Source of the DNA: a virus
Taxonomy: Duplodnaviria > Heunggongvirae > Uroviricota > Caudoviricetes
Reading direction: 5' to 3' (one strand)
Virus record (IMG/VR): IMGVR_UViG_2547132273_000013
DNA: 20,662 nt
Shown: piece by piece, positions 2,131 through 20,134 of the stretch
How positions within the stretch are numbered: position 1 is the first letter of the stretch
How the letters are laid out: every line of letters starts with the position of its first letter
Made by a program: the position numbers and the translations under genes
Notes under the pieces: generated by a model
What the model saw: only the letters and a program-made list of their open reading frames with translations
Database searches by the model: none
Told to the model about the DNA's origin: nothing

Positions 2131-2568
2131 TTAAACCCCGTTAAATGCTGCTTTAAACTCATAAGGAATAACGGAACCATCCGGTAATGTCAGTGCAATG
2201 TAGAGGTATAACCAGCCCTGATGTAACTGTTCCGCTCTGACGTTAATCGCACTTACCCGGCCCGCTGTTTTCAGCCATTCCAGCGCCTCTTCGGCATACC
2301 CTCTGGCGCGTTCCAGCGTATCCGGTGTGGCTTTTTCACGTGATAACAGCCACAACCGCGAACCGATGGGGCGGTCGCGGTAACTGTCCCCCCACCATCC
2401 ACGGCGATCATCTGAACCATCCGGCAGCGTGTCAGAATCCAGCGCGCGCCGGTCGGTAAACAGGGAGATTGTCACATCGGTTGTCAGGCTGTCGTCGGTC
2501 AGCATATCAATGCCATCCTGTGCAATATCGCCGCGCCCGTTCGTCCAGATAATGGCTAAATCGGTCAT
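2131..2568 (-). CDS. V: Baseplate wedge protein, Mu gp46 (V)-like (Phage_GP46 family)
   Basis: 145-aa ORF; 4-nt overlap with the upstream spike gene; position conserved relative to Mu. Confidence 0.8.
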   Translation of the reverse strand: MTDLAIIWTNGRGDIAQDGIDMLTDDSLTTDVTISLFTDRRALDSDTLPDGSDDRRGWWGDSYRDRPIGSRLWLLSREKATPDTLERARGYAEEALEWLKTAGRVSAINVRAEQLHQGWLYLYIALTLPDGSVIPYEFKAAFNGV

Positions 2569-3158
2569 TGCATTGGCCCCGTGGTTCCGCCGCTGTCGCC
2601 ACGGTGGATATGCTTATCCGTCGATTTGCCATTGATGATGGCATCCGGGGCAGTAATATTGCTGTCGAACTGGCTTTTACCTTTAACGCCCAGACCTTTC
2701 TGGATCTCAACGTCGCCGGTAAACGTGGTTCTGGGTGTGTCAACGGTCATACTTTCATCAGCGTAAACCTCGACCGTTTTACAGGTAATGATGCAGCGTC
2801 CGTCCTTTGTCAGCCTGATACGATGCCCCTCATGGTGGTAAATGCCTGCATCACCCGGTTCAAGATTTGTCGGGCGGTAGCGGCGGTCTTCCACCACAAC
2901 AGCAATCCCCTGATCACGTTGTGCGCCTACACAGGCAATCAGCGCCTCTGCGCCCGGCAGGGGAACGCTGAAATGTCCGTAATTTTGCAGGCGCTCCACT
3001 TCATCGGATTCCTCATCATCCAGCAGACCGACCTGCAGGTTCTGAACTTTTCGCCCGTCGTTAATCACGTTAACAACGGCACGCGCAAGCATCAGGCGCA
3101 CACGACGCATCAGCGGTGTCAGCAGGCGGTTCATGGCGGAATCATTTACTCTTTCCAC
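2565..3158 (-). CDS. Q: Baseplate central spike protein (Mu gp45 / Q; P2 gpV-like)
   Basis: 197-aa ORF; C-terminus ...GKSTDKHIHRGDSGGTTGPMQ carries an H-x-H motif of the kind that coordinates metal at spike apexes; lies between the hub-like and gp46-like genes. Confidence 0.8.
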   Translation of the reverse strand: MERVNDSAMNRLLTPLMRRVRLMLARAVVNVINDGRKVQNLQVGLLDDEESDEVERLQNYGHFSVPLPGAEALIACVGAQRDQGIAVVVEDRRYRPTNLEPGDAGIYHHEGHRIRLTKDGRCIITCKTVEVYADESMTVDTPRTTFTGDVEIQKGLGVKGKSQFDSNITAPDAIINGKSTDKHIHRGDSGGTTGPMQ

Positions 3159-4285
3159 GGCGGCGTTTTCTCCGGGTGTCTGCGATAATAATCTTCAACC
3201 AGCGCATCAATACCGCCGTTACTGTCGCCGCCTTTCCTGTTTTTGCGGTCGCTTTCAACCGGCACCAGAAAGCCTTCGCGTGGTACAAGGCTGACGCGGG
3301 TTTTCAGCCCATCCTGGTCATTCAGTATCAGGGTGACTTTGCTGACCAGTAATTCTGTGGTTTTGATGGCATATTTCGAGGCATCAATAGTGACCAGCAG
3401 GTTCGGCATCCAGAGTTGCCCGTCCTTGCGTGTCCATCCGTCAATTTCTGCCTCAAAGGTGATGGATTTTGCCAGTCTGCGGCGTTGCTCACGCAGGGCG
3501 CGGGCCTGTGCATCCTTCGCCGTAATTTTGCTGTCGGCAATGATGATCATCGGTCTGTAACGGGTCACATCACTGTCAGTGGCGGTCCCTTTCCGGGAGA
3601 CGATACTTTTCGCATCAATATCATCACCCTCAGCACCATTTGCGCGGGCATACCCCTTGACGGTGTATTCGCTGAACCGGTCGCGGAAGTCTTCCTCAAA
3701 ATCCAGTGTCAGCAGATTTTCTCCGAGAACCAGCTCATCAGTGGCTGTGCTGGCAGCCCGGCTGAATACCAGCTCTCCGGCGGCATTGCTGGTCATCAGT
3801 ACACCGCGTGCGCGGGAGGCACGCACCAGCGCCTCATAAACGGTTTCTGAATGGTCCAGCGTGAAGCTGGGAAAAACTGCCGAACTTTCCTTATCGGAAA
3901 GCTCCCAGCGAACGGTAACGCCATAAGGGGTGCACAGGTCACGCGCAATCTGCTCCAGTGTGCGGTTTTTCCATTGTCCGCCACTGTAAACGGCAGCACA
4001 GTCAATCAGGTCAGCCGTTTTGTCACGTCCGGCGATAGTGATTTTCATACTGTCAGCGGTCATCTGGCGTCGCCGTGAATCGATATAACCGGTGCAGACA
4101 ATCTGCCCCTCGATTTCCAGCGTGAACTTCTTCCCCGGTGCCAGCCCGGATAAATCCGTGCCCGGTGGCACGTTCACCCCCAGCTCAAAATATCCGGCTA
4201 CGGATTCAATCGAGCGGGTGACAGAGACTGACGTCCAGCCGGTAAAAAGCCTGCCATCCGTTCGCAGCGTGACGGTATTACTCAT
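3146..4285 (-). CDS. P: Baseplate hub protein (Mu gp44 / P; P2 gpD 'late control D' family)
   Basis: 379-aa ORF; start preceded by GAGGTG, a Shine-Dalgarno-like sequence, and overlaps the end of the N-like gene; order N-P-Q as in Mu. Confidence 0.85.
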
Positions 4286-12871: not shown

Positions 12872-13419
12872 TTTTCTTGTTCCTGTTTCATTTTCAGATA
12901 CTCAGCCTCAGTAATGCCGAGCGCCTTCACTGCTGCTTTTTCATCAGCAGACAGCACCGCCACCGCCGTTTTTTCCTGCGACGGGTTTTGTACCGTTGTG
13001 GTCTGCATGGCAGATAACGCAGCGATGGGCTGTTTTTTCTCAAGCTGTGCCGACAGTGCCGCCACGCCAATCTGACCACCAAGCTGTTCCAGGTAAGTGC
13101 GTTCGCTTTTGAAAATGCGGCCTTCCTGTTCCGCCTTGTCCAGAACGGCGCTCAGGCTGGCGGTGGCACTTTGCGCGGTGGCCTGAGCCAGCTCATCGAG
13201 CACGGCGTTGTAGCTTTCCACCGGGACGTATTTCGTCAGGTCAACGGCGGCTTTCTGTGCCTTTTCCAGTTCGGCGGATAACGACGCCACTTTTCCGGCA
13301 TCTGTTTCGAGCGCATCAAGCGCACTCAGGGCCGCGCTGGCCTGTTCATCAGTGATGTCTGCATTTTCGGGGACAGTTACCCCAAGACGCGCAAGTAGCT
13401 TGCGCAGCGTTTCATTCAT
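12868..13419 (-). CDS. Putative nested in-frame scaffold protein (Mu Z-like) from an internal start within the I-like gene
   Basis: Internal in-frame ATG at 13417-13419 (MNETLRKLLARLG...) is preceded by CAGGAG, a Shine-Dalgarno-like sequence, at about 7-8 nt. Mu is known to express scaffold Z from an internal start in I. Confidence 0.4.
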   Translation of the reverse strand: MNETLRKLLARLGVTVPENADITDEQASAALSALDALETDAGKVASLSAELEKAQKAAVDLTKYVPVESYNAVLDELAQATAQSATASLSAVLDKAEQEGRIFKSERTYLEQLGGQIGVAALSAQLEKKQPIAALSAMQTTTVQNPSQEKTAVAVLSADEKAAVKALGITEAEYLKMKQEQEK

Positions 13420-13968
13420 GGGTTTGTTCTCCTGTTGAAGGATGTCGGGAAGGTCTGCCGCCAGTGCGGTCAGCTTTTTCATGCCGGTGGCACCGGGATC
13501 ATTGGTCAGCGCAGCAAGGCGGATTTGCAGTACCGCACCGGTGGCGGTGTCATACGGAAAAACCGCAGAGAGATAACCAAATTCGCCGTCATCGATGCGC
13601 TGCTGGGCTGCCGCTGTCCAGCGTGGGTGGATAAATAACCCTTCACCTTCACGCCACTGCATTTCATCGGCGTTAAACCAGCCAGCCGCGACCAGTTGTT
13701 CCGGGGGTAATCCTTTGTCCTTACGCAGCTGGTTATGCTCGTAATCAATCAGCACGTCCTGGTTAAGTGCGCGGATACCTTCAATCAGGCGTCCGGCAAT
13801 TTCTCCGTCGATGAACCAGCCCTGACCAGTTGTTACATCAAACGGGCGACCGTCACGGGCACTGAAATAACCGGCAGGCAATAGCTGGCACCAGCCGTCA
13901 TCGTCAATGGACAGCGCACCCAGCGCAGCAATACCAATCGCGTGTTTTTTCATGTCCGGCCTGCTCAT
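12868..13968 (-). CDS. I: Prohead protease / scaffold protein, Mu I-like
   Basis: 366-aa ORF; N-terminal half protease-like, C-terminal half Ala/Glu/Gln-rich coiled-coil-like as expected for scaffold; upstream of the major head gene. The first ATG has a weak ribosome-binding site, so the true start may be the second ATG (MKKHAIG...). Confidence 0.85.
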   Translation of the reverse strand: MSRPDMKKHAIGIAALGALSIDDDGWCQLLPAGYFSARDGRPFDVTTGQGWFIDGEIAGRLIEGIRALNQDVLIDYEHNQLRKDKGLPPEQLVAAGWFNADEMQWREGEGLFIHPRWTAAAQQRIDDGEFGYLSAVFPYDTATGAVLQIRLAALTNDPGATGMKKLTALAADLPDILQQENKPMNETLRKLLARLGVTVPENADITDEQASAALSALDALETDAGKVASLSAELEKAQKAAVDLTKYVPVESYNAVLDELAQATAQSATASLSAVLDKAEQEGRIFKSERTYLEQLGGQIGVAALSAQLEKKQPIAALSAMQTTTVQNPSQEKTAVAVLSADEKAAVKALGITEAEYLKMKQEQEK

Positions 13969-14154
13969 CGTGATTTGTGAGTAGCCAGTGTGCGGGGAAC
14001 GGGAGAAAAGGCGGGGTTATCCAGTTTTAGTAATTCTGTAGGAGAAAGATAAAGGGGAAGGGAAATGCATGACGCCACCCCCTTCAAAACCCCTTCAAAA
14101 ACGCCACAGAACCTTCAAAAATTCTTTATCGCGTGATTTTATCTCTGTATCTGG
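13969..14154 (-). promoter_or_regulatory. Non-coding gap between the G-like and I-like genes: candidate late promoter (P_I equivalent) and possible strong-gyrase-site-like central element
   Basis: 186 bp without an ORF on either strand inside an otherwise tightly coupled operon. Contains three CCTTCAAAA repeats (14081-14089, 14092-14100, 14112-14120), two ACGCCAC copies and a C-rich tract (GGATAACCCCGCC on the transcribed strand). In Mu the G-I gap holds the C-dependent P_I promoter and the central strong gyrase site. Confidence 0.4.
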
Positions 14155-15977: not shown

Positions 15978-17460
15978 GGGTCAGCATGTCGATAAGTTCT
16001 GCATCATCCATCTGCGGATATAATGAAGCGGCTTTGTTCATGGCGGCTTCCGGGCCATCTTTCAGCACAGAAAGAATGACGGGTTTCAGCAGGGGATCAA
16101 CCGAACGCTGCCAGTCTTCCGGTGAAACGCCCATCCGGTCGATATCATCCTTCTGCGGGATATCATCAGCGGATAATGCGGCCTCTTTCTGCGAACCGTT
16201 ATCCGGGACAACCGGTTGTACAGTAAACACGGCCTCATCACCGACCGGCTGTGGAATATGAAGTTTTTCCTGTATCCAGGAGACCGGAATACGCATTCCT
16301 GCCGCCAGTTTCGGAATGGCGTCAGACAGTGCCGTAATATCACCCGCTTCACTGGTATCAAATACAATGCCCGGCAGGCGGTTAATATCAATGGTGCTGT
16401 TACTGTTCAGTGCCAGCAGGGGATAAATCAGGTCACGGTTAATACTGCGGGCAAGCTGGCCCACATCCGCGTTACGGATTTCCCGGCGAACCTCGTCATG
16501 CACTTCACCCAGCGACCGCGCACCTTTATCTCCGGCCTCTGTGGTCAGGGTGCCGCCCAGAATGGCTTTTGAAATCGCTTTTTCTGCCCAGCCAATCATC
16601 GCCATAAAGGGGTCTGACTGACCATCTGCGGCGCTCTGAAAATCCAGCGTCATCCCCATCGGAATAATGCCACCGGCACGTCGCCCGATATCCATCACGG
16701 CCTGCATCAGCGTGGCTTTCTCGCGGTTCGTGGAGCCGGTCGGATATTTACCGACGCGCATAGGGAGTCCGTAAATTTCCAGGAACTCCGCAAAATCACG
16801 CACGGAATAGTTTTTAAAAATAAAAGGCCAGATAAGCGTGCGCACAAGGCCATTGGTACCAACGTACCCGGTGCGGGATTTGGCCCGGTGCATAAACCAG
16901 CCGAACGGTTGCAGCTCCAGCCCGTGATAAGACGTATCACGCAGACGTAATTCGTTCAGATTGTCGGGGTTCGCGCAGAACAGCGCCGGATCGCGATGAT
17001 GCAGCGCCACCGGCACGCGCATTTTTCCCAGCCAGCCCCATTCAATCTCCTGCATGGAATAACCCTTGAGAATGGCATCACCGGCATCAAACAGGGCATC
17101 TTCAAACCACGCCGCATCATGCAGATATTCATTCAGCATGTCGGCGTCTTTTTTCTCCTGTGCGCTGGCATCACGTGCCGGAGCGATGCGCCATTCCAGC
17201 GCCTGAATGGCAAGGCGGCGTTTGCTCAGTTCGGAAAAAAGGTGGGTGTCCTTTTCTTCCATATCAAAGGCCAGGTCAGCCTGTGCTGTCAGATCACCGC
17301 GTTCGGCATCACGCAGCATCTGCGCGGCCCTGTTCGGCGTCACGCCACTGGAGGGATGCTCCTGCGTGCGCTTCATGACCATTGCCAGCTCATCGCTGCG
17401 GGTCTGCATTTCATCGTCAAAATCAAACGGCTGCCCGGAAATATCCAGAATACGGCCCAT
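15922..17460 (-). CDS. Portal protein (Mu gp29-like, DUF935 family)
   Basis: 512-aa ORF directly downstream of the large terminase with stop/start overlap (TAATG); size and position typical of Mu-like portals. Confidence 0.85.
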   Translation of the reverse strand: MGRILDISGQPFDFDDEMQTRSDELAMVMKRTQEHPSSGVTPNRAAQMLRDAERGDLTAQADLAFDMEEKDTHLFSELSKRRLAIQALEWRIAPARDASAQEKKDADMLNEYLHDAAWFEDALFDAGDAILKGYSMQEIEWGWLGKMRVPVALHHRDPALFCANPDNLNELRLRDTSYHGLELQPFGWFMHRAKSRTGYVGTNGLVRTLIWPFIFKNYSVRDFAEFLEIYGLPMRVGKYPTGSTNREKATLMQAVMDIGRRAGGIIPMGMTLDFQSAADGQSDPFMAMIGWAEKAISKAILGGTLTTEAGDKGARSLGEVHDEVRREIRNADVGQLARSINRDLIYPLLALNSNSTIDINRLPGIVFDTSEAGDITALSDAIPKLAAGMRIPVSWIQEKLHIPQPVGDEAVFTVQPVVPDNGSQKEAALSADDIPQKDDIDRMGVSPEDWQRSVDPLLKPVILSVLKDGPEAAMNKAASLYPQMDDAELIDMLTRAIFVADIWGRLDAAADH

Positions 17461-19106
17461 TACCAGCCCCCTCGTTCAAACTGGTGATAATCATCGTTAT
17501 CAACATCATCACCACGGTGGCGTGGTGGCAGCGCCTGTATGCTGTCCTCGTCGATAACAAAACCATTCATATAAGACGCCCTGACAGCCATACAGAGCGC
17601 CACGGCAAAGTCGCCATGTCGTCGGCCTTTACCGCCTTCATCTTTTGTGCGCCCCTTATCAATCTGCGGAATACCTTTGTCCACCCTGATGTGGAGCAGG
17701 TCATCAAGTGTGGTCTGGTGCCGGGCAATCGTGATGTTCTGCGCTTCAAACTCGCCTTTCAGTTTTGGCATCCACTCCTGATACCAGGATGCGGTCAGAT
17801 TCACACAGTCGATCATCTCCGGGCCATAAATCAGACGGGCGGCTTCTGCCAGATAACCGCCGTTACCGGTGGCATCAAATGCAGCGCCGGTAAAACGGGG
17901 TAAACGGGACAGAATGAATAAAAGGATTTGTCGCTGCTGGTCATAGGTCACATTACGCAGCTCCACGCGGAAACATTCGCGTTTGCGTAAGTCTGGAGTG
18001 ATGGCAAGCGGCACAAACACCGTCAGGTCGCCACGGCGTGCAAAGTCTTCGCCCAGTACGTGTTTATTGAGCGGTGACAGCGCATCGAGCAACGGGAGCA
18101 GCTCCTGTTCACACCAGTCCTGAACGATACCGTGGCGCATCTGCGGTGTCAGCGATTCAAAATCGTCCGGAGCTTCAAAACGCAGAACCGGGATATCCCG
18201 CGCGGGTGTCATGGCAGCTTCAATCAGGACACGGGACAGGTAAGCGCCACCGGATTTTTTGGGAATACAGCCGTATTCCTCGTCGGCGCTCTCTTTGTTC
18301 GGCGCGTTCCGGTACAGGCCATCACGCCAGGCTTTCTCCGCTTCCGGCGACCACGGCTGATTCGTGACATAACAGATACGCCGGTACAGCCCGTCAGCGA
18401 TGGCATCGTCCAGCGTGATACGGTGAACGCTGTAATCCTTGCGCCCCTCACGCGCATCCTGAATGTACTGGTTAAACAGGTTATCGACGCCGTTATGTGT
18501 CGATATGATCCGCACGCGTGCACCCCACATGGTGAGCGCAAAGGCCGCTTTCAGGAGTTCATCCAGGGCTTCATGAAATGCCGCTTCATCAATCACCACA
18601 TCCCCCTGTAAACCACGCAGGTTAGACGGGCGGCTTGAAAGCGCCTGCACCTTAAATCCACTATTCGGAAAGCGGATCATGTAGGTGAGGATTTCTTCTT
18701 TTTTGTCGCTGTCCCAGAAGGTCTGCTCCCAGACGTCAGCCTTTGCCAGCTGGTTAAAGGCGCGGGCAAACAGGGCACAGGCGGCGATGTATTCCAGCGC
18801 CATTTCCTGACGGGAACCCACATAAAAGACGTTGCGACCACCACGGCGACGCGGCTTTGCGGCCGTCATGACATTGCGGCCCGCTTCGGCCCATGTCAGA
18901 CCGGTACGACGGGATTTTTCAGCAATGCAAATCTGGTTTTCATCCTCAAACCAGCCGCGCTGATAGCCTAGGAAAACCGGTTCATTGCGGGGCTGCGCTT
19001 CCCCGATATCGGTCACGATATTCACGCCAAGCAGTTCGGCCTCCTTGCGCAGGTCGATTTTGCGGGGTGCATGAAGGGCTTTAAGTTTGCTTTCTTTGGT
19101 GCTCAC
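17460..19106 (-). CDS. Terminase large subunit (Mu gp28-like)
   Basis: 548-aa ORF, the largest head-module protein upstream of the portal. The only in-frame start after an upstream TGA is GTG at 19104-19106, and it lacks an obvious Shine-Dalgarno sequence. Confidence 0.85.
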   Translation of the reverse strand: MSTKESKLKALHAPRKIDLRKEAELLGVNIVTDIGEAQPRNEPVFLGYQRGWFEDENQICIAEKSRRTGLTWAEAGRNVMTAAKPRRRGGRNVFYVGSRQEMALEYIAACALFARAFNQLAKADVWEQTFWDSDKKEEILTYMIRFPNSGFKVQALSSRPSNLRGLQGDVVIDEAAFHEALDELLKAAFALTMWGARVRIISTHNGVDNLFNQYIQDAREGRKDYSVHRITLDDAIADGLYRRICYVTNQPWSPEAEKAWRDGLYRNAPNKESADEEYGCIPKKSGGAYLSRVLIEAAMTPARDIPVLRFEAPDDFESLTPQMRHGIVQDWCEQELLPLLDALSPLNKHVLGEDFARRGDLTVFVPLAITPDLRKRECFRVELRNVTYDQQRQILLFILSRLPRFTGAAFDATGNGGYLAEAARLIYGPEMIDCVNLTASWYQEWMPKLKGEFEAQNITIARHQTTLDDLLHIRVDKGIPQIDKGRTKDEGGKGRRHGDFAVALCMAVRASYMNGFVIDEDSIQALPPRHRGDDVDNDDYHQFERGGW

Positions 19107-19160
19107 AGGTGAAAAATCCGGTATAAATTTTCAGGCTTTAATCAGTAAAAAGAGGTTGTG

Positions 19161-19376
19161 ATGAAAGAAAAACTGACCATTGATCAAAAAATTGAAATCG
19201 CAAAAATCGCGGGGCAGATTGTTAGCAGTGCGATAGAAACAAAAATTACCCCACACCAATTGATAAGCCGCAAAAATGCTGAAAGCGATGCCGTTTATTC
19301 GTACGATGATTTATTCGGGTATTTCTGTTCTTTTATTACCCGCACAGTCAGCGACACACCTGACCACTGCGAATAA
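19161..19376 (+). CDS. Hypothetical small protein (71 aa) on the opposite strand in an AT-rich inserted cassette; candidate moron gene
   Basis: ATG at 19161 preceded by AGAGG (19151-19155, 5-nt spacing); stop TAA 19374-19376. Hand-counted GC is about 30-43% across 19141-19380, visibly lower than the flanking phage genes. No family recognised from sequence. Confidence 0.45.
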   Translation: MKEKLTIDQKIEIAKIAGQIVSSAIETKITPHQLISRKNAESDAVYSYDDLFGYFCSFITRTVSDTPDHCE

Positions 19377-19542
19377 TATCTGCGGCGACCATCGGGCTGC
19401 TGATTAACTGCATCAGTAAAAATAACGCTTCAGCTTTCGTGACGATATGAATGTTGCCCTCCTCAGCCAGCGCCGCTTCGACGATGGGTTTGAGTTTCAG
19501 GGCAATATCCGCAGATGTTTTCTCTTCTGATTTAACAGCCAT
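19348..19542 (-). CDS. Hypothetical small protein (64 aa), translationally coupled downstream of the gp27-like gene
   Basis: ATG at 19540-19542 preceded by AGAGGAAAA immediately after the gp27-like stop (TAA 19556-19558); stop TGA 19348-19350. Its 3' end overlaps the 3' end of the plus-strand small gene by 29 nt. The longer track ORF (to 19662) would overlap the gp27-like gene, so the internal start is preferred. Confidence 0.4.
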   Translation of the reverse strand: MAVKSEEKTSADIALKLKPIVEAALAEEGNIHIVTKAEALFLLMQLISSPMVAADIIRSGQVCR

Positions 19543-19555
19543 TACATTTTCCTCT

Positions 19556-20134
19556 TTACGCTTTCCCCAGCAGCACATCACGGATACGCTGCTCCAGTTC
19601 TTCGCTGATGCCATCCTGCCCGCGCAGTTCTTCACTGACGGCGTTTGCCGCTTCTTCTGCAAACGCCTGGCGGATCTCTTTCTCGCGTCGGTGGCTGGAC
19701 ATTGCCGTGGATTCCAGACGCTGTGCTGCCAGCATGGCGTTTTTCAGCAGTTCAATATCCACGTCATCTTCCGGTTTTTCGATTTGCCGCATCATGGCTT
19801 TAAAAAGCTGGCTGCGGGCCATTTCCAGAATCAGCTTTGTGGTTTCCCCCATTGGCTTGTCGCCAAGTTCTGCGGTCAGTGCTGACGTCATTTCACGCAT
19901 CTGTCGCAGGTTATGGCCTACCTGTTCGACGTTTGTCGCGTAACGGTTCAGGCCGGAACGGGAGAGTTTCATGTCATCAGGCAGTCCGGCATCTTCAATC
20001 AGGGCGTTAATTTCTTCCAGAATGCGGGCCTGTGGGATTGCCTTGTCACGCAGCATTTCATGCAGTGTTTTGCGCACGTTTTCCGGCAGCAAATCCACTT
20101 TTGAAGCCCGTCCCCGTGTTTTCCTGTCCATCAT
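19556..20134 (-). CDS. DUF3486-family protein, Mu gp27-like (putative terminase small subunit)
   Basis: 192-aa ORF with a basic N-terminus (RGRASKVDLLPENVRKTL...) and acidic C-terminal coiled-coil-like region; sits upstream of the large terminase as in Mu. GGAGG lies just upstream of the tandem ATGs. Confidence 0.75.
   Translation of the reverse strand: MMDRKTRGRASKVDLLPENVRKTLHEMLRDKAIPQARILEEINALIEDAGLPDDMKLSRSGLNRYATNVEQVGHNLRQMREMTSALTAELGDKPMGETTKLILEMARSQLFKAMMRQIEKPEDDVDIELLKNAMLAAQRLESTAMSSHRREKEIRQAFAEEAANAVSEELRGQDGISEELEQRIRDVLLGKA

What the first reader, a model, noticed from the sequence alone, without database searches (positions are those of the whole stretch)
19107..19555. 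AT-rich cassette with an opposite-strand small gene between the gp27-like gene and the large terminase (candidate moron or accessory locus)
Everything else in the window is minus-strand and tightly coupled, but here about 450 bp separate the DUF3486 gp27-like gene from the large terminase. The gap holds a 71-aa plus-strand ORF (19161-19376) with a good Shine-Dalgarno sequence and ATG, in sequence that I hand-count at roughly 40% GC, lower than its neighbours. It converges on a 64-aa minus-strand ORF (19348-19542), with their 3' ends overlapping by 29 nt. As I recall it, Mu has no gene between gp27 and gp28, so this looks like a horizontally acquired insert. Morons in this kind of position often encode superinfection-exclusion, anti-defence or host-modulating functions. 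Neither protein matches a family I recognise.
Basis: partly seen in the sequence, partly recalled or inferred. Interest (0 to 1): 0.75.

Follow-up and report, generated by a model that had tools for sequence, protein, structure and literature searches.

The report
Tab-like gene pair between terminase genes
Between the two DNA-packaging genes of this Mu-like E. coli prophage lie two real, fast-evolving small genes on opposite strands, laid out exactly like the Pseudomonas phage 'Tab/anti-Tab' defence pair but unrelated to it in sequence, so they are probably an uncharacterised defence-and-antidote pair.

Summary
A 449-bp, lower-GC insert (0.42 against 0.54-0.55 in the flanks) separates gp27/TerS from TerL. 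It holds a plus-strand 71-aa gene ('C', 19161-19376) and a late-strand 64-aa gene ('B', 19542-19348), whose 3' ends overlap by 29 nt. Mu, D108 and SfMu have nothing at this position.

Both are real genes. C has pN/pS of 0.15, and its first 17 codons show 11 synonymous changes against 1 non-synonymous. A conserved AAGAGG Shine-Dalgarno sequence precedes it.

This is not a one-off insertion. In all 31 loci that carry C, the gene lies antisense next to the TerL start and converges on a small late-strand ORF. That includes prophages whose TerL is unrelated to Mu's.

The window and the E. coli SE11 prophage are 98.7% identical over about 20 kb. The one exception is a 218-bp block covering the C-terminal parts of both genes.

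The layout matches Tab/anti-Tab of the Pseudomonas Mu-like phage JBD26 (PMC10884400): TerS, then anti-Tab, then an opposite-strand Tab with a 47-nt overlap, then TerL. No sequence homology to either protein is detectable.

Best reading (about 0.45): C is a prophage-expressed blocker of a late assembly or packaging step in superinfecting relatives, and B is its late-expressed antidote. Expression, target and binding are all untested. I class it as a new variant of a known kind.

The parts
19161..19376 (+). Gene C: 71-aa soluble acidic helix-loop-helix protein (phrog_25148). Candidate prophage-expressed defence protein occupying the Tab slot.
   Evidence: ORF. pN/pS is 0.15, and the N-terminal 17 codons show 11 synonymous changes against 1 non-synonymous. 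The family has 17 members of 61-80 aa plus one partial match inside an 867-aa protein, among 1.84 billion representatives. AF2 predicts helices at 7-26 and 48-63, mean pLDDT 71. pI is 5.2 and there is no TM segment.
19150..19155 (+). Shine-Dalgarno sequence AAGAGG for gene C, 5 nt before the ATG.
   Evidence: An equivalent purine-rich motif at the same 5-nt spacing occurs in all nine divergent loci compared.
19100..19127 (+). Weak sigma-70-like promoter candidate for gene C (TGCTCA, 16 nt, TATAAA). The -35 element lies in the first codons of TerL.
   Evidence: It is the only candidate from a relaxed scan. The strict scan found none. Function is unproven.
19348..19542 (-). Gene B: 64-aa three-helix protein (phrog_21398) on the late-operon strand. 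Its SD (AAGAGGA, 19550-19556) overlaps the TerS stop codon. Candidate late-expressed antidote occupying the anti-Tab slot.
   Evidence: ORF. PHROG E-value 2.7e-31. The conserved C-terminal motif E[AS]L[YFW]L.MQ...GP..A..I recurs in distant loci: L029 at 32.9 bits and L032 at 25.7 bits. AF2 predicts helices at 10-28, 36-48 and 50-59.
19348..19376 (.). 29-nt overlap of the 3' ends of the converging genes C and B. There is no room for a terminator.
   Evidence: The overlap is 0-29 nt in 30 of the 31 loci that carry C; L020, with a truncated B, is the exception. JBD26 tab/atab overlap by 47 nt. RNA folding of the overlap is unremarkable, z = -1.6.
19211..19428 (.). Hypervariable allelic block: C codons 18-71 plus B codons 39-64.
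   Evidence: It is the only segment that blastn cannot align between the window and the SE11 prophage, which are otherwise 98.7% identical over 19.2 kb. The TUM9757 allele is a recombinant with a breakpoint inside B.
19107..19347 (-). 241-nt untranslated spacer of the late transcript between the B stop and the TerL GTG start. It is antisense to gene C.
   Evidence: Read directly. The equivalent spacer in JBD26 is 235 nt.
19556..20134 (-). Flank: small terminase (Mu gp27, DUF3486).
   Evidence: Pfam PF11985, E-value 1.3e-52.
17460..19106 (-). Flank: large terminase (Mu gp28 type). It has a GTG start and no obvious SD.
   Evidence: Pfam Terminase_6N. 81-83% identical to TerL of the Citrobacter prophage (L013) and of IMG/VR locus L018; 99% to SE11 TerL.

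Best explanation
The cassette is a two-gene defence and self-immunity module embedded in the late operon of a Mu-like prophage. It works like Tab/anti-Tab of Pseudomonas phage JBD26.

**Proposed mechanism**
- Gene C lies on the strand opposite to the late genes. It is transcribed in the lysogen from its own weak promoter at the TerL 5' end.
- Its small acidic helix-loop-helix product binds a late virion-assembly or DNA-packaging component of superinfecting related phages. The infected cell still lyses but releases no infectious progeny.
- Gene B sits directly after TerS on the late transcript, so it is made only when the resident prophage goes lytic. It binds and neutralises C, so the prophage can assemble its own virions.
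- The 218-bp hypervariable block holds the parts of C and B that recognise each other, and possibly the part of C that recognises its target. Different prophages therefore carry different cognate alleles.

**Shown here:** gene reality, architecture, synteny, allelic hypervariability and the match of layout to Tab/anti-Tab.

**Inferred:** expression in the lysogen, the anti-phage activity, the identity of the target, and B-C binding.
For: 1. **The layout is the same as JBD26.** JBD26 has TerS, then atab on the late strand, then tab on the opposite strand with a 47-nt 3' overlap, then a 30-nt gap to TerL. The window has TerS, a 13-nt gap, B, then C on the opposite strand with a 29-nt overlap, then a 54-nt gap to TerL. 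PMC10884400 reports four relevant points. [quoted passage not shown] They are always accompanied by a gene directly after TerS. [quoted passage not shown] Anti-Tab binds Tab and is needed only in the lytic cycle.
2. **C occupies the Tab slot beside a JBD26-type TerL.** TerL of locus L027 is 63% identical to JBD26 TerL, and a C-family protein sits where Tab sits.
3. **C is never found without a partner.** All 31 loci with C have a converging late-strand ORF, whereas B occurs without C in the isolated phage Tongde. This matches the Tab report that loss of the antidote alone is lethal to the phage, while an antidote alone lets a phage escape.
4. **B and C are the only fast-evolving part of a conserved frame.** TerL and TerS are 95-100% identical among E. 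coli relatives, against 41-81% for B and 41-90% for C. A single 218-bp unalignable block lies within about 20 kb at 98.7% identity. The recombinant TUM9757 allele keeps the C-terminal part of B with its C allele.
5. **Both genes are under purifying selection**, and C has a conserved SD.
6. **Other features fit a moron-type accessory locus.** GC is lower, and the cassette is present or absent among close relatives, as for tab.
7. **C homologues were found only in prophages.** None was detected in 50,697 phage records.
8. **The same opposite-strand logic is documented elsewhere.** TERi is described in bioRxiv 10.1101/2025.02.27.640495, where non-homologous genes alternate in one slot yet share the activity. 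Tai/Ati is described in PMC11364771.
Against: - **No detectable homology to Tab or anti-Tab.** hhalign gives probabilities of 0.35% and 0.09%. The profile score of Tab against the C family is no better than shuffled sequences, with 570 of 2000 shuffles scoring at least as high. BLASTP finds nothing even where the neighbouring TerL proteins are 63% identical. The argument therefore rests on architecture, not descent.
- **No convincing promoter.** The strict scan found none, and the best candidate matches 3 of 6 and 5 of 6 hexamer positions. There are no expression data.
- **Covariation is also explained by linkage.** The variable parts of B and C are physically contiguous, so their joint variation does not require co-evolution.
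- **The divergence is old rather than positively selected.** In the variable block pN/pS is about 0.4-0.5 with saturated synonymous sites.
- **Structure gives no functional hint.** Fold searches return only generic helical hits with E-values above 1.
- **The target is unknown.** Position next to the terminase genes does not identify it, because Tab sits in the same place yet targets the tape measure protein.
Confidence: 0.45

Rival explanations
1. C is an independent lysogeny-expressed moron, and B is an unrelated late accessory protein that merely shares the slot. Under this reading C would act in host modulation, entry-level superinfection exclusion or anti-defence. It would have no functional tie to B.
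For: - The locus has lower GC and is present or absent among close relatives.
- B occurs alone in phage Tongde, and a third small ORF, A, can share the slot. This suggests a general hot spot for small genes.
- Covariation of B and C can be explained by linkage.
Against: - C is accompanied by a converging late-strand ORF in 31 of 31 loci. These span two unrelated TerL families and two TerS families.
- The B motif is co-conserved with C in distant loci.
- There is no terminator between the two genes.
Confidence: 0.2
2. The pair is mainly a cis-regulatory device, a 'noncontiguous operon'. Antisense transcription from the C promoter through B and TerS, or pairing of C mRNA with the 241-nt spacer of the late mRNA, would tune TerL and late-gene expression. 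The proteins would be secondary.
For: - C is always immediately divergent from the TerL start, 54-103 nt away.
- The late mRNA carries a long untranslated spacer that is antisense to C, and TerL here has a GTG start and no SD.
- There is no terminator, so the transcripts must overlap.
- Noncontiguous operons regulate Tai/Ati (PMC11364771).
Against: - Selection acts strongly at the protein level on C. Its N-terminal helix is invariant while synonymous sites are saturated. A purely RNA-level role would not preserve that.
- The DNA of the block is freely replaced by unalignable alleles.
- There is no Rfam match and no unusual RNA structure.
- This mechanism is compatible with the best explanation rather than exclusive of it.
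Confidence: 0.1
3. B and C are a toxin-antitoxin-like addiction or abortive-infection pair that acts on the host cell rather than on virion assembly.
For: - Both are small proteins, tightly linked, with converging overlapping 3' ends as in some type I systems.
- The authors of the Tab paper themselves note the resemblance of such interdependent pairs to addiction modules.
Against: - C is soluble and acidic with no hydrophobic segment (maximum Kyte-Doolittle 19-residue window 0.82). B is only borderline hydrophobic in one allele (1.83 here, 1.34 in SE11).
- Both strands encode proteins under purifying selection, so neither is a plain antisense RNA.
- There are no matches to any TA or defence model in Pfam, NCBIfam or PADLOC.
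- The proposed antidote, B, would be silent in the lysogen, which is the wrong way round for addiction.
Confidence: 0.08
4. Both genes are lytic-cycle accessory factors for packaging or head assembly, for example terminase modulators. C would be driven by a phage activator (Mor- or C-type promoters lack -35 boxes) rather than expressed in the lysogen.
For: - The position between TerS and TerL is conserved across divergent Mu-like phages.
- The weak -35 element is typical of activator-dependent Mu promoters (established knowledge of Mu middle and late promoters).
Against: - The cassette is dispensable. Mu, D108, SfMu and most E. coli Mu-like prophages lack it, although their terminase DNA at this junction is 92-96% identical.
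- Allelic hypervariability beside 99-100%-identical terminase proteins argues against a role in tuning the resident terminase.
- I saw no obvious resemblance between the sequence upstream of C and the intergenic region upstream of the protease/scaffold gene, presumed to hold a late promoter (inspection only).
Confidence: 0.1
5. The plus-strand ORF is a chance ORF in AT-rich spacer DNA and not a gene.
For: - It is short, with no Pfam match.
- It is annotated only as a hypothetical protein.
Against: - pN/pS is 0.15, and codons 1-17 show 11 synonymous changes against 1 non-synonymous.
- The SD is conserved.
- 17 small homologues were found, always in the same context.
Confidence: 0.02

Closest known systems
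Tab / anti-Tab of Pseudomonas aeruginosa Mu-like phage JBD26 (gp31/gp30; Patel et al. 2024, Nat Commun 15:1644, PMC10884400)
   Same: - The host element is a Mu-like transposable prophage.
[quoted passage not shown] - The defence-position gene lies on the opposite strand, next to the TerL start.
- The 3' ends converge and overlap (47 nt in JBD26, 29 nt here).
- Both proteins are small: 83 and 83 aa in JBD26, 71 and 64 aa here.
- Gross chemistry is similar. The defence-position protein is acidic and hydrophilic, and the partner is slightly hydrophobic.
- Both are present or absent among close relatives.
- Locus L027 has a TerL 63% identical to JBD26 TerL and carries a C-family gene in the Tab slot.
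   Different: - There is no detectable sequence or profile similarity to Tab or anti-Tab.
- The hosts here are Enterobacterales.
- The family is broader, with 17 small members clustered at 50% identity, and it occurs beside two unrelated TerL families. Tab homologues were reported only in close relatives of JBD26.
- Activity, target (the tape measure protein for Tab) and B-C binding are untested here.
TERi (TerI / anti-TerI1, anti-TerI2) of Listeria comK prophages (Azulay et al., bioRxiv 10.1101/2025.02.27.640495)
   Same: - The defence protein is small (65 aa) and encoded on the opposite strand inside a lytic operon, overlapping a lytic-strand gene.
- The self-immunity genes lie on the lytic strand.
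- The slot holds alternative, non-homologous small genes with the same activity.
- The system is linked to DNA packaging, since TerI binds TerS.
   Different: - TERi lies in the early lytic module, not between the terminase genes.
- The host is Gram-positive and the phage is a siphovirus.
- It has two antidotes.
- Homology was not tested because I had no TerI sequence.
- The promoter of terI is highly conserved and mapped. Here the promoter is only a weak candidate.
Tai / Ati of phi80 and Salmonella prophages (PMC11364771), and Tha/Ith of Staphylococcus prophages
   Same: The defence gene is constitutively expressed, the cognate counter-defence gene is expressed only in the lytic cycle, and the two are arranged on opposite strands as a noncontiguous operon. 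Ati binds its cognate Tai.
   Different: - The proteins are larger and unrelated.
- The genomic location differs (accessory regions of lambdoid phages and PICIs).
- The target, the central tail fibre, is known.
Classical morons (lambdoid definition: an autonomous promoter-gene-terminator unit of deviant composition)
   Same: GC content is deviant, and the cassette is present in some close relatives and absent from others at a precise junction.
   Different: - There is no terminator and no clear promoter.
- It is a two-gene unit on both strands.
- The same family keeps the same slot across very divergent phages.

Membership tests
Tab/anti-Tab defence system (JBD26) | [quoted passage not shown] | tested here: met
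   The genes lie between the DUF3486 TerS (20134..19556) and TerL (19106..17460). JBD26 layout and PMC10884400 section 8.
Tab/anti-Tab defence system (JBD26) | Defence gene on the strand opposite to the late operon, adjacent to the TerL start | tested here: met
   C is on the plus strand and all late genes are on the minus strand. The gap to the TerL start is 54 nt here and 30 nt in JBD26.
Tab/anti-Tab defence system (JBD26) | Partner gene immediately after TerS on the late strand, converging on the defence gene | tested here: met
   B starts 13 nt after the TerS stop, and its SD overlaps that stop. The 3' overlap with C is 29 nt, against 47 nt in JBD26. A converging late-strand ORF is present in 31 of 31 loci with C.
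Tab/anti-Tab defence system (JBD26) | Own promoter; constitutive expression from the prophage | tested here: inconclusive
   The strict sigma-70 scan found none. The only candidate is the weak TGCTCA-16-TATAAA at 19100-19127. No expression data were available.
Tab/anti-Tab defence system (JBD26) | Sequence homology to Tab (gp31) and anti-Tab (gp30) | tested here: not met
   hhalign probabilities are 0.35% and 0.09%. The HMM score is -1.0 bits, and 570 of 2000 shuffles score at least as high. BLASTP gives nothing.
Tab/anti-Tab defence system (JBD26) | Antidote binds the defence protein; deleting the antidote alone is lethal to the phage | not testable with these tools
   Only indirect support: C is never seen without a partner ORF while B occurs alone, and the variable parts of both genes are swapped together.
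Tab/anti-Tab defence system (JBD26) | Blocks tail assembly through the tape measure protein, with lysis but no infectious progeny | not testable with these tools
   This needs phage challenge, electron microscopy and escape mutants.
TERi (TerI/anti-TerI) | Small defence gene on the opposite strand within a lytic operon, overlapping a lytic-strand gene, with self-immunity genes on the lytic strand | tested here: met
   The architecture is as described and is seen here.
TERi (TerI/anti-TerI) | Position in the early lytic module; homology to TerI; binding to TerS | not tested
   The position differs, since this cassette is in the late operon. I had no TerI sequence, and binding cannot be tested here.
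Classical moron | Deviant base composition, and presence or absence at a precise junction among close relatives | tested here: met
   GC is 0.42 against 0.54-0.55 in the flanks. Mu, D108 and SfMu have a 7-nt junction. Four different contents occupy the site.
Classical moron | Autonomous transcription unit flanked by its own promoter and terminator | tested here: not met
   There is no terminator-like site downstream of C, and the genes overlap at their 3' ends. The promoter is only weak.
Type I toxin-antitoxin with converging 3' overlap | Small hydrophobic membrane toxin plus a non-coding antisense RNA | tested here: not met
   C has a maximum Kyte-Doolittle 19-residue window of 0.82, and B of 1.83 or 1.34 depending on the allele. 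Both frames are under purifying selection as proteins. There is no Rfam match.
PHROG families phrog_25148 (C) and phrog_21398 (B), both of unknown function | Significant match to the family profile | tested here: met
   C matches with E = 1.4e-9, over the N-terminal 35 residues only. B matches with E = 2.7e-31 over its full length.

The most novel reading that the evidence does not exclude
The C/B pair is a new sequence family of virion-assembly or DNA-packaging blockers with allele-specific antidotes. It would be widespread in enterobacterial Mu-like prophages. The 218-bp hypervariable block would define 'immunity groups', so that prophages carrying different alleles exclude each other's progeny. 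That would make it a polymorphic inter-phage warfare locus analogous to bacteriocin/immunity pairs. It would also show that the TerS-TerL junction of transposable phages is a conserved docking slot for such systems across Pseudomonas and Enterobacterales.
Probability: 0.3. Interest if true: 0.75.

Novelty: new variant of a known kind. Interest (0 to 1): 0.62.

Why it matters
Defence by blocking virion assembly or DNA packaging is a recently recognised class, represented by Tab, Tai and TERi. The Tab paper stated that Tab homologues were known only in close relatives of JBD26.

This locus indicates that the same slot, with the same opposite-strand logic, is used by an unrelated and allelically diverse small-protein pair in Mu-like prophages of E. 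coli, Citrobacter and other bacteria.

If the pair works as predicted, three things follow:
- It would extend this defence class to the best genetic system available, phage Mu in E. coli.
- It would give a natural set of cognate and non-cognate alleles for dissecting specificity.
- It would explain why the one hypervariable spot in an otherwise 98.7%-identical 20-kb late region sits here.

It also gives annotators a rule. An antisense small ORF at the TerL start of a Mu-like prophage, converging on a small late-strand ORF, is a real gene pair.

Tried and rejected
- **Domain and family searches.** Pfam, NCBIfam and PADLOC gave nothing for C, B, ORF A, Tab or anti-Tab; the one listed row (MCR-4, E = 0.24, for Tongde's B homologue) is noise.
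- **Solved-structure sequence search.** There were no hits for C. For B there were only summed weak matches to designed armadillo repeats, each stretch with an i-Evalue above 200. I rejected these as spurious.
- **Fold searches.** Foldseek of both AF2 models against PDB, and of C against BFVD, returned only generic helical hits with E-values above 1. B looks HTH-like by eye because of its '...GP..A..I' motif, but nothing supports that.
- **Homology to Tab and anti-Tab.** hhalign, an HMM test against shuffled sequences and BLASTP were all negative. IMG/VR held only Tab relatives of 97% identity or more, so no Tab profile could be built. By eye, the C-terminal helix and acidic 'PEPSE/DPEDS' tail are similar, but this is not statistically supported.
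- **RNA explanations.** There was no Rfam match. The overlap region folds no better than shuffled sequence (z = -1.6). No terminator lies after C.
- **Late-promoter resemblance.** The intergenic region upstream of the protease/scaffold gene, presumed to hold a late promoter, shows no obvious likeness to the sequence upstream of C (inspection only).
- **Phage records.** tblastn of C-family proteins found nothing, and B is found only in Yersinia phage Tongde.
- **Literature.** There was no hit for the RefSeq protein accessions and no report of an enterobacterial Mu-like Tab analogue.
- **Not possible here.** I also could not name the organisms of loci L027-L033.
Full report
**1.

The window is the late (head and tail) region of a Mu-like prophage, with all long genes on the minus strand. 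TerL runs 19106..17460 and the DUF3486/Phage_Mu_Gp27 small terminase runs 20134..19556. They are separated by 449 bp (19107-19555).

That gap holds two ORFs. One is a plus-strand ORF at 19161-19376, encoding 71 aa from an ATG, with AAGAGG 5 nt upstream. The other is a minus-strand ORF at 19542..19348, encoding 64 aa. Their 3' ends overlap by 29 nt.

GC content is 0.403 for the plus-strand gene and 0.333 for the spacer between it and TerL. It is 0.487 for the 64-aa gene and 0.421 for the whole gap. The flanks are higher: TerL 0.552, TerS 0.539, and the window overall 0.544.

In Mu itself, gp27 and gp28 are 7 nt apart. D108, SfMu and most Mu-like junctions in complete E. coli genomes look the same.

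**2. Both small ORFs are genes**

I call the plus-strand gene C and the 64-aa gene B.

Against a 90%-identical allele (L014), C shows 12 synonymous and 7 non-synonymous differences, giving pN/pS of 0.15. In its first 17 codons there are 6 to 11 synonymous differences but only 0 or 1 non-synonymous, when compared with four other alleles. A purine-rich Shine-Dalgarno sequence lies 5 nt before the ATG in all nine divergent loci examined.

An exhaustive profile search of 1.84 billion representative proteins found 18 matches. Seventeen are small proteins of 61-80 aa and one is a partial match inside an 867-aa protein. The family has three parts:
- a near-invariant N-terminal helix, LTIDQKIxIA
- a hypervariable middle region
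- a C-terminal amphipathic helix followed by an acidic tail, LFxxxYxxIxxxVTxEPE

AlphaFold2 predicts two main helices, at 7-26 and 48-63, with mean pLDDT of 71. C is soluble and acidic, with pI 5.2 and no hydrophobic segment.

B matches phrog_21398 with E = 2.7e-31. It has pN/pS of 0.3-0.6 and is predicted to form a three-helix bundle with pLDDT of 67. Its conserved C-terminal motif, E[AS]L[YFW]L.MQ...GP..A..I, recurs in distant loci.

No characterised family matches either protein. Pfam, NCBIfam, PADLOC, PDB sequences and fold searches all returned nothing meaningful.

**3. The junction is a variable site, but C and B form a conserved module**

Four different contents occupy the gp27-TerL junction among close relatives:
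- nothing: Mu, D108, SfMu and at least 17 complete E. coli genomes
- a 274-bp insert with an unannotated 56-aa late-strand ORF, 'A': seven genomes, for example APEC E19057
- A plus B: Yersinia phage Tongde
- B plus C: the window, SE11, TUM9757 and PEC422

Some loci carry all three genes (Citrobacter, L019).

The window's own allele is absent from 5,426 complete E. coli genomes, where the best hit covers 67% of the query. Its exact protein is nevertheless on record in many draft assemblies.

In every one of the 31 fetched loci that carry a C homologue, three things are true. C lies on the strand opposite to the late genes. It sits next to the TerL start, 54-103 nt away. It converges on a late-strand ORF. 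The 3' ends overlap by 0-29 nt in 30 of these loci. The exception is L020, where B is truncated.

This holds in prophages whose TerS is DUF1804 rather than DUF3486. It also holds where TerL shows no BLASTP similarity to the window's TerL. So this is not a sporadic insertion of a single gene.

**4. B and C are the only hypervariable spot in a conserved frame**

Among E. coli relatives, TerL and TerS are 95-100% identical to the window's. B is 41-81% identical and C is 41-90%.

The window and the SE11 prophage align collinearly at 98.7% over 19.2 kb and at 97.4% over a further 771 bp. The only stretch that blastn cannot align is 19211-19428, 218 bp in length. It covers C codons 18-71 and B codons 39-64.

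Synonymous sites inside this block are saturated (pS about 1.0), and pN/pS is about 0.4. The alleles are therefore old and exchanged by recombination, not recently and rapidly evolved. TUM9757 is a recombinant. Codons 1-38 of its B are of the window type, while the rest of B and all of C are of the SE11 type.

**5. The closest known system**

A literature search led to Patel et al. 2024 (PMC10884400). [quoted passage not shown] It blocks tail assembly of superinfecting relatives by acting on the tape measure protein.

Anti-Tab (gp30) lies directly after TerS on the late strand. It binds Tab and is needed only in the phage's own lytic cycle. Deleting it alone could not be achieved, whereas deleting both genes is harmless.

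I fetched the JBD26 record. atab runs 13377-13628 on the plus strand and tab runs 13582-13833 on the minus strand, giving a 47-nt overlap of their 3' ends. TerL starts 30 nt beyond the tab start. The window has this layout gene for gene.

In addition, TerL of locus L027 is 63% identical to JBD26 TerL. L027 carries a C-family gene in the Tab slot and a 64-aa ORF in the anti-Tab slot.

The same opposite-strand defence and counter-defence logic is described for two other systems. One is TERi in Listeria, where a 65-aa TerI binds TerS and non-homologous genes alternate in the slot with similar activity. The other is Tai/Ati in phi80.

**6. Membership and mechanism are separate questions**

C is not a detectable homologue of Tab, and B is not a detectable homologue of anti-Tab. 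The evidence is as follows:
- hhalign gives probabilities of 0.35% and 0.09%.
- Tab scores -1.0 bits against the C-family profile, and 570 of 2000 shuffled sequences do at least as well.
- BLASTP finds nothing, even for the L027 pair.
- A Tab profile could not be built, because IMG/VR holds only near-identical copies.

Within the Mu type, C falls to about 38-41% identity while TerL is still 82% identical. Divergence beyond recognition from a common ancestor therefore cannot be excluded, but it is not shown either. I do not file the pair as a member of the Tab family. I do regard it as the same kind of system by architecture.

**7. Best-supported mechanism (confidence about 0.45)**

C is made in the lysogen and inactivates a late assembly or packaging component of incoming related phages. 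B is co-transcribed with the terminase genes on induction and neutralises C. The hypervariable block would carry the cognate recognition surfaces.

Support beyond the layout:
- C never occurs without a converging partner, whereas B occurs alone in a free phage.
- C homologues are absent from 50,697 phage records and were seen only in prophages.
- The cassette is dispensable and polymorphic.

Weak points:
- The only promoter candidate is weak: TGCTCA, 16 nt, TATAAA at 19100-19127. The strict scan found none.
- There are no expression data.
- The target is unknown.
- Covariation of B and C can be explained by linkage alone.

Rivals, with rough weights:
- An independent moron with an unrelated neighbour (0.2).
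- A mainly cis-regulatory noncontiguous operon that tunes TerL (0.1). This is compatible with the main model.
- Lytic-phase packaging accessories (0.1).
- A toxin-antitoxin-like pair (0.08).
- A chance ORF (0.02), which the codon data already refute.

**8. Verdict**

The interpretation as an accessory, possibly exclusion-type locus is partly supported and can now be stated more sharply.

What is present is a conserved, allelically hypervariable pair of small genes on opposite strands, sitting in the slot where Pseudomonas Mu-like phages keep Tab/anti-Tab. Novelty: a new variant of a known kind. Interest is moderate to high, because the prediction is specific and directly testable with phage Mu genetics in E. 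coli.

Noticed in passing
L003 1701-1871 (-) (E. coli APEC E19057); also L004 (Tongde), L019 and L013: A third small late-strand ORF, 'A' (56-58 aa, MKNNYKAQLISAHKKAF...), sits directly after gp27/TerS in some relatives. It is unannotated in the RefSeq record of APEC E19057 and absent from the window. Its only family match is a weak one to part of a PHROG 'minor head protein and DNA pilot' profile (E = 5e-4).
   Followed up: partly
L029 3185-3706 (-) (GCA_049316685.1): In this locus the B-like motif forms the last 36 residues of a 173-aa ORF whose N-terminus is a Pfam Phage_gp49_66 domain. A separate 63-aa ORF lies upstream. This looks like a fusion or replacement variant of the partner gene.
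   Followed up: partly
window 19107-19347 (-) and 19104-19106: TerL starts with GTG and has no recognisable Shine-Dalgarno sequence. The late mRNA must carry a 241-nt untranslated spacer that is antisense to gene C. JBD26 has a 235-nt spacer in the same place. In Mu, by contrast, a GAGGG sequence directly follows the gp27 stop codon. How TerL is translated here is unexplained.
   Followed up: no
window about 14085-14125 (-): Three direct copies of TTTTGAAGG lie in the 186-bp intergenic region upstream of the protease/scaffold gene. This is presumably the region of the late promoter P_I.
   Followed up: no
L032 5086-5810 (+) and L033: A HigB-toxin gene plus an HTH gene lie on the opposite strand inside the lysis region of a DUF1804-type Mu-like prophage. 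This is another opposite-strand insert in a lytic operon.
   Followed up: no
window 19560-19633: 74 bp at the 3' end of the gp27/TerS gene are 78-80% identical at the DNA level to TerS genes of Pseudomonas Mu-like phages such as JD18, JBD67 and PM105. That is unusually high for such distant hosts.
   Followed up: no
L027, L034 and window TerL genes: The C family sits beside two TerL families that BLASTP cannot relate to each other: the Mu type, and the JBD26/L027 type (63% identical to each other). The small-gene module has therefore either outlived a terminase swap or moved between lineages into the same slot.
   Followed up: partly
L023 (Apirhabdus apintestini CP138906.1) 2297-3600: This is a decaying Mu-like prophage. 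TerL, TerS and B are truncated or split, but the C-family ORF is still intact at 65 aa.
   Followed up: no
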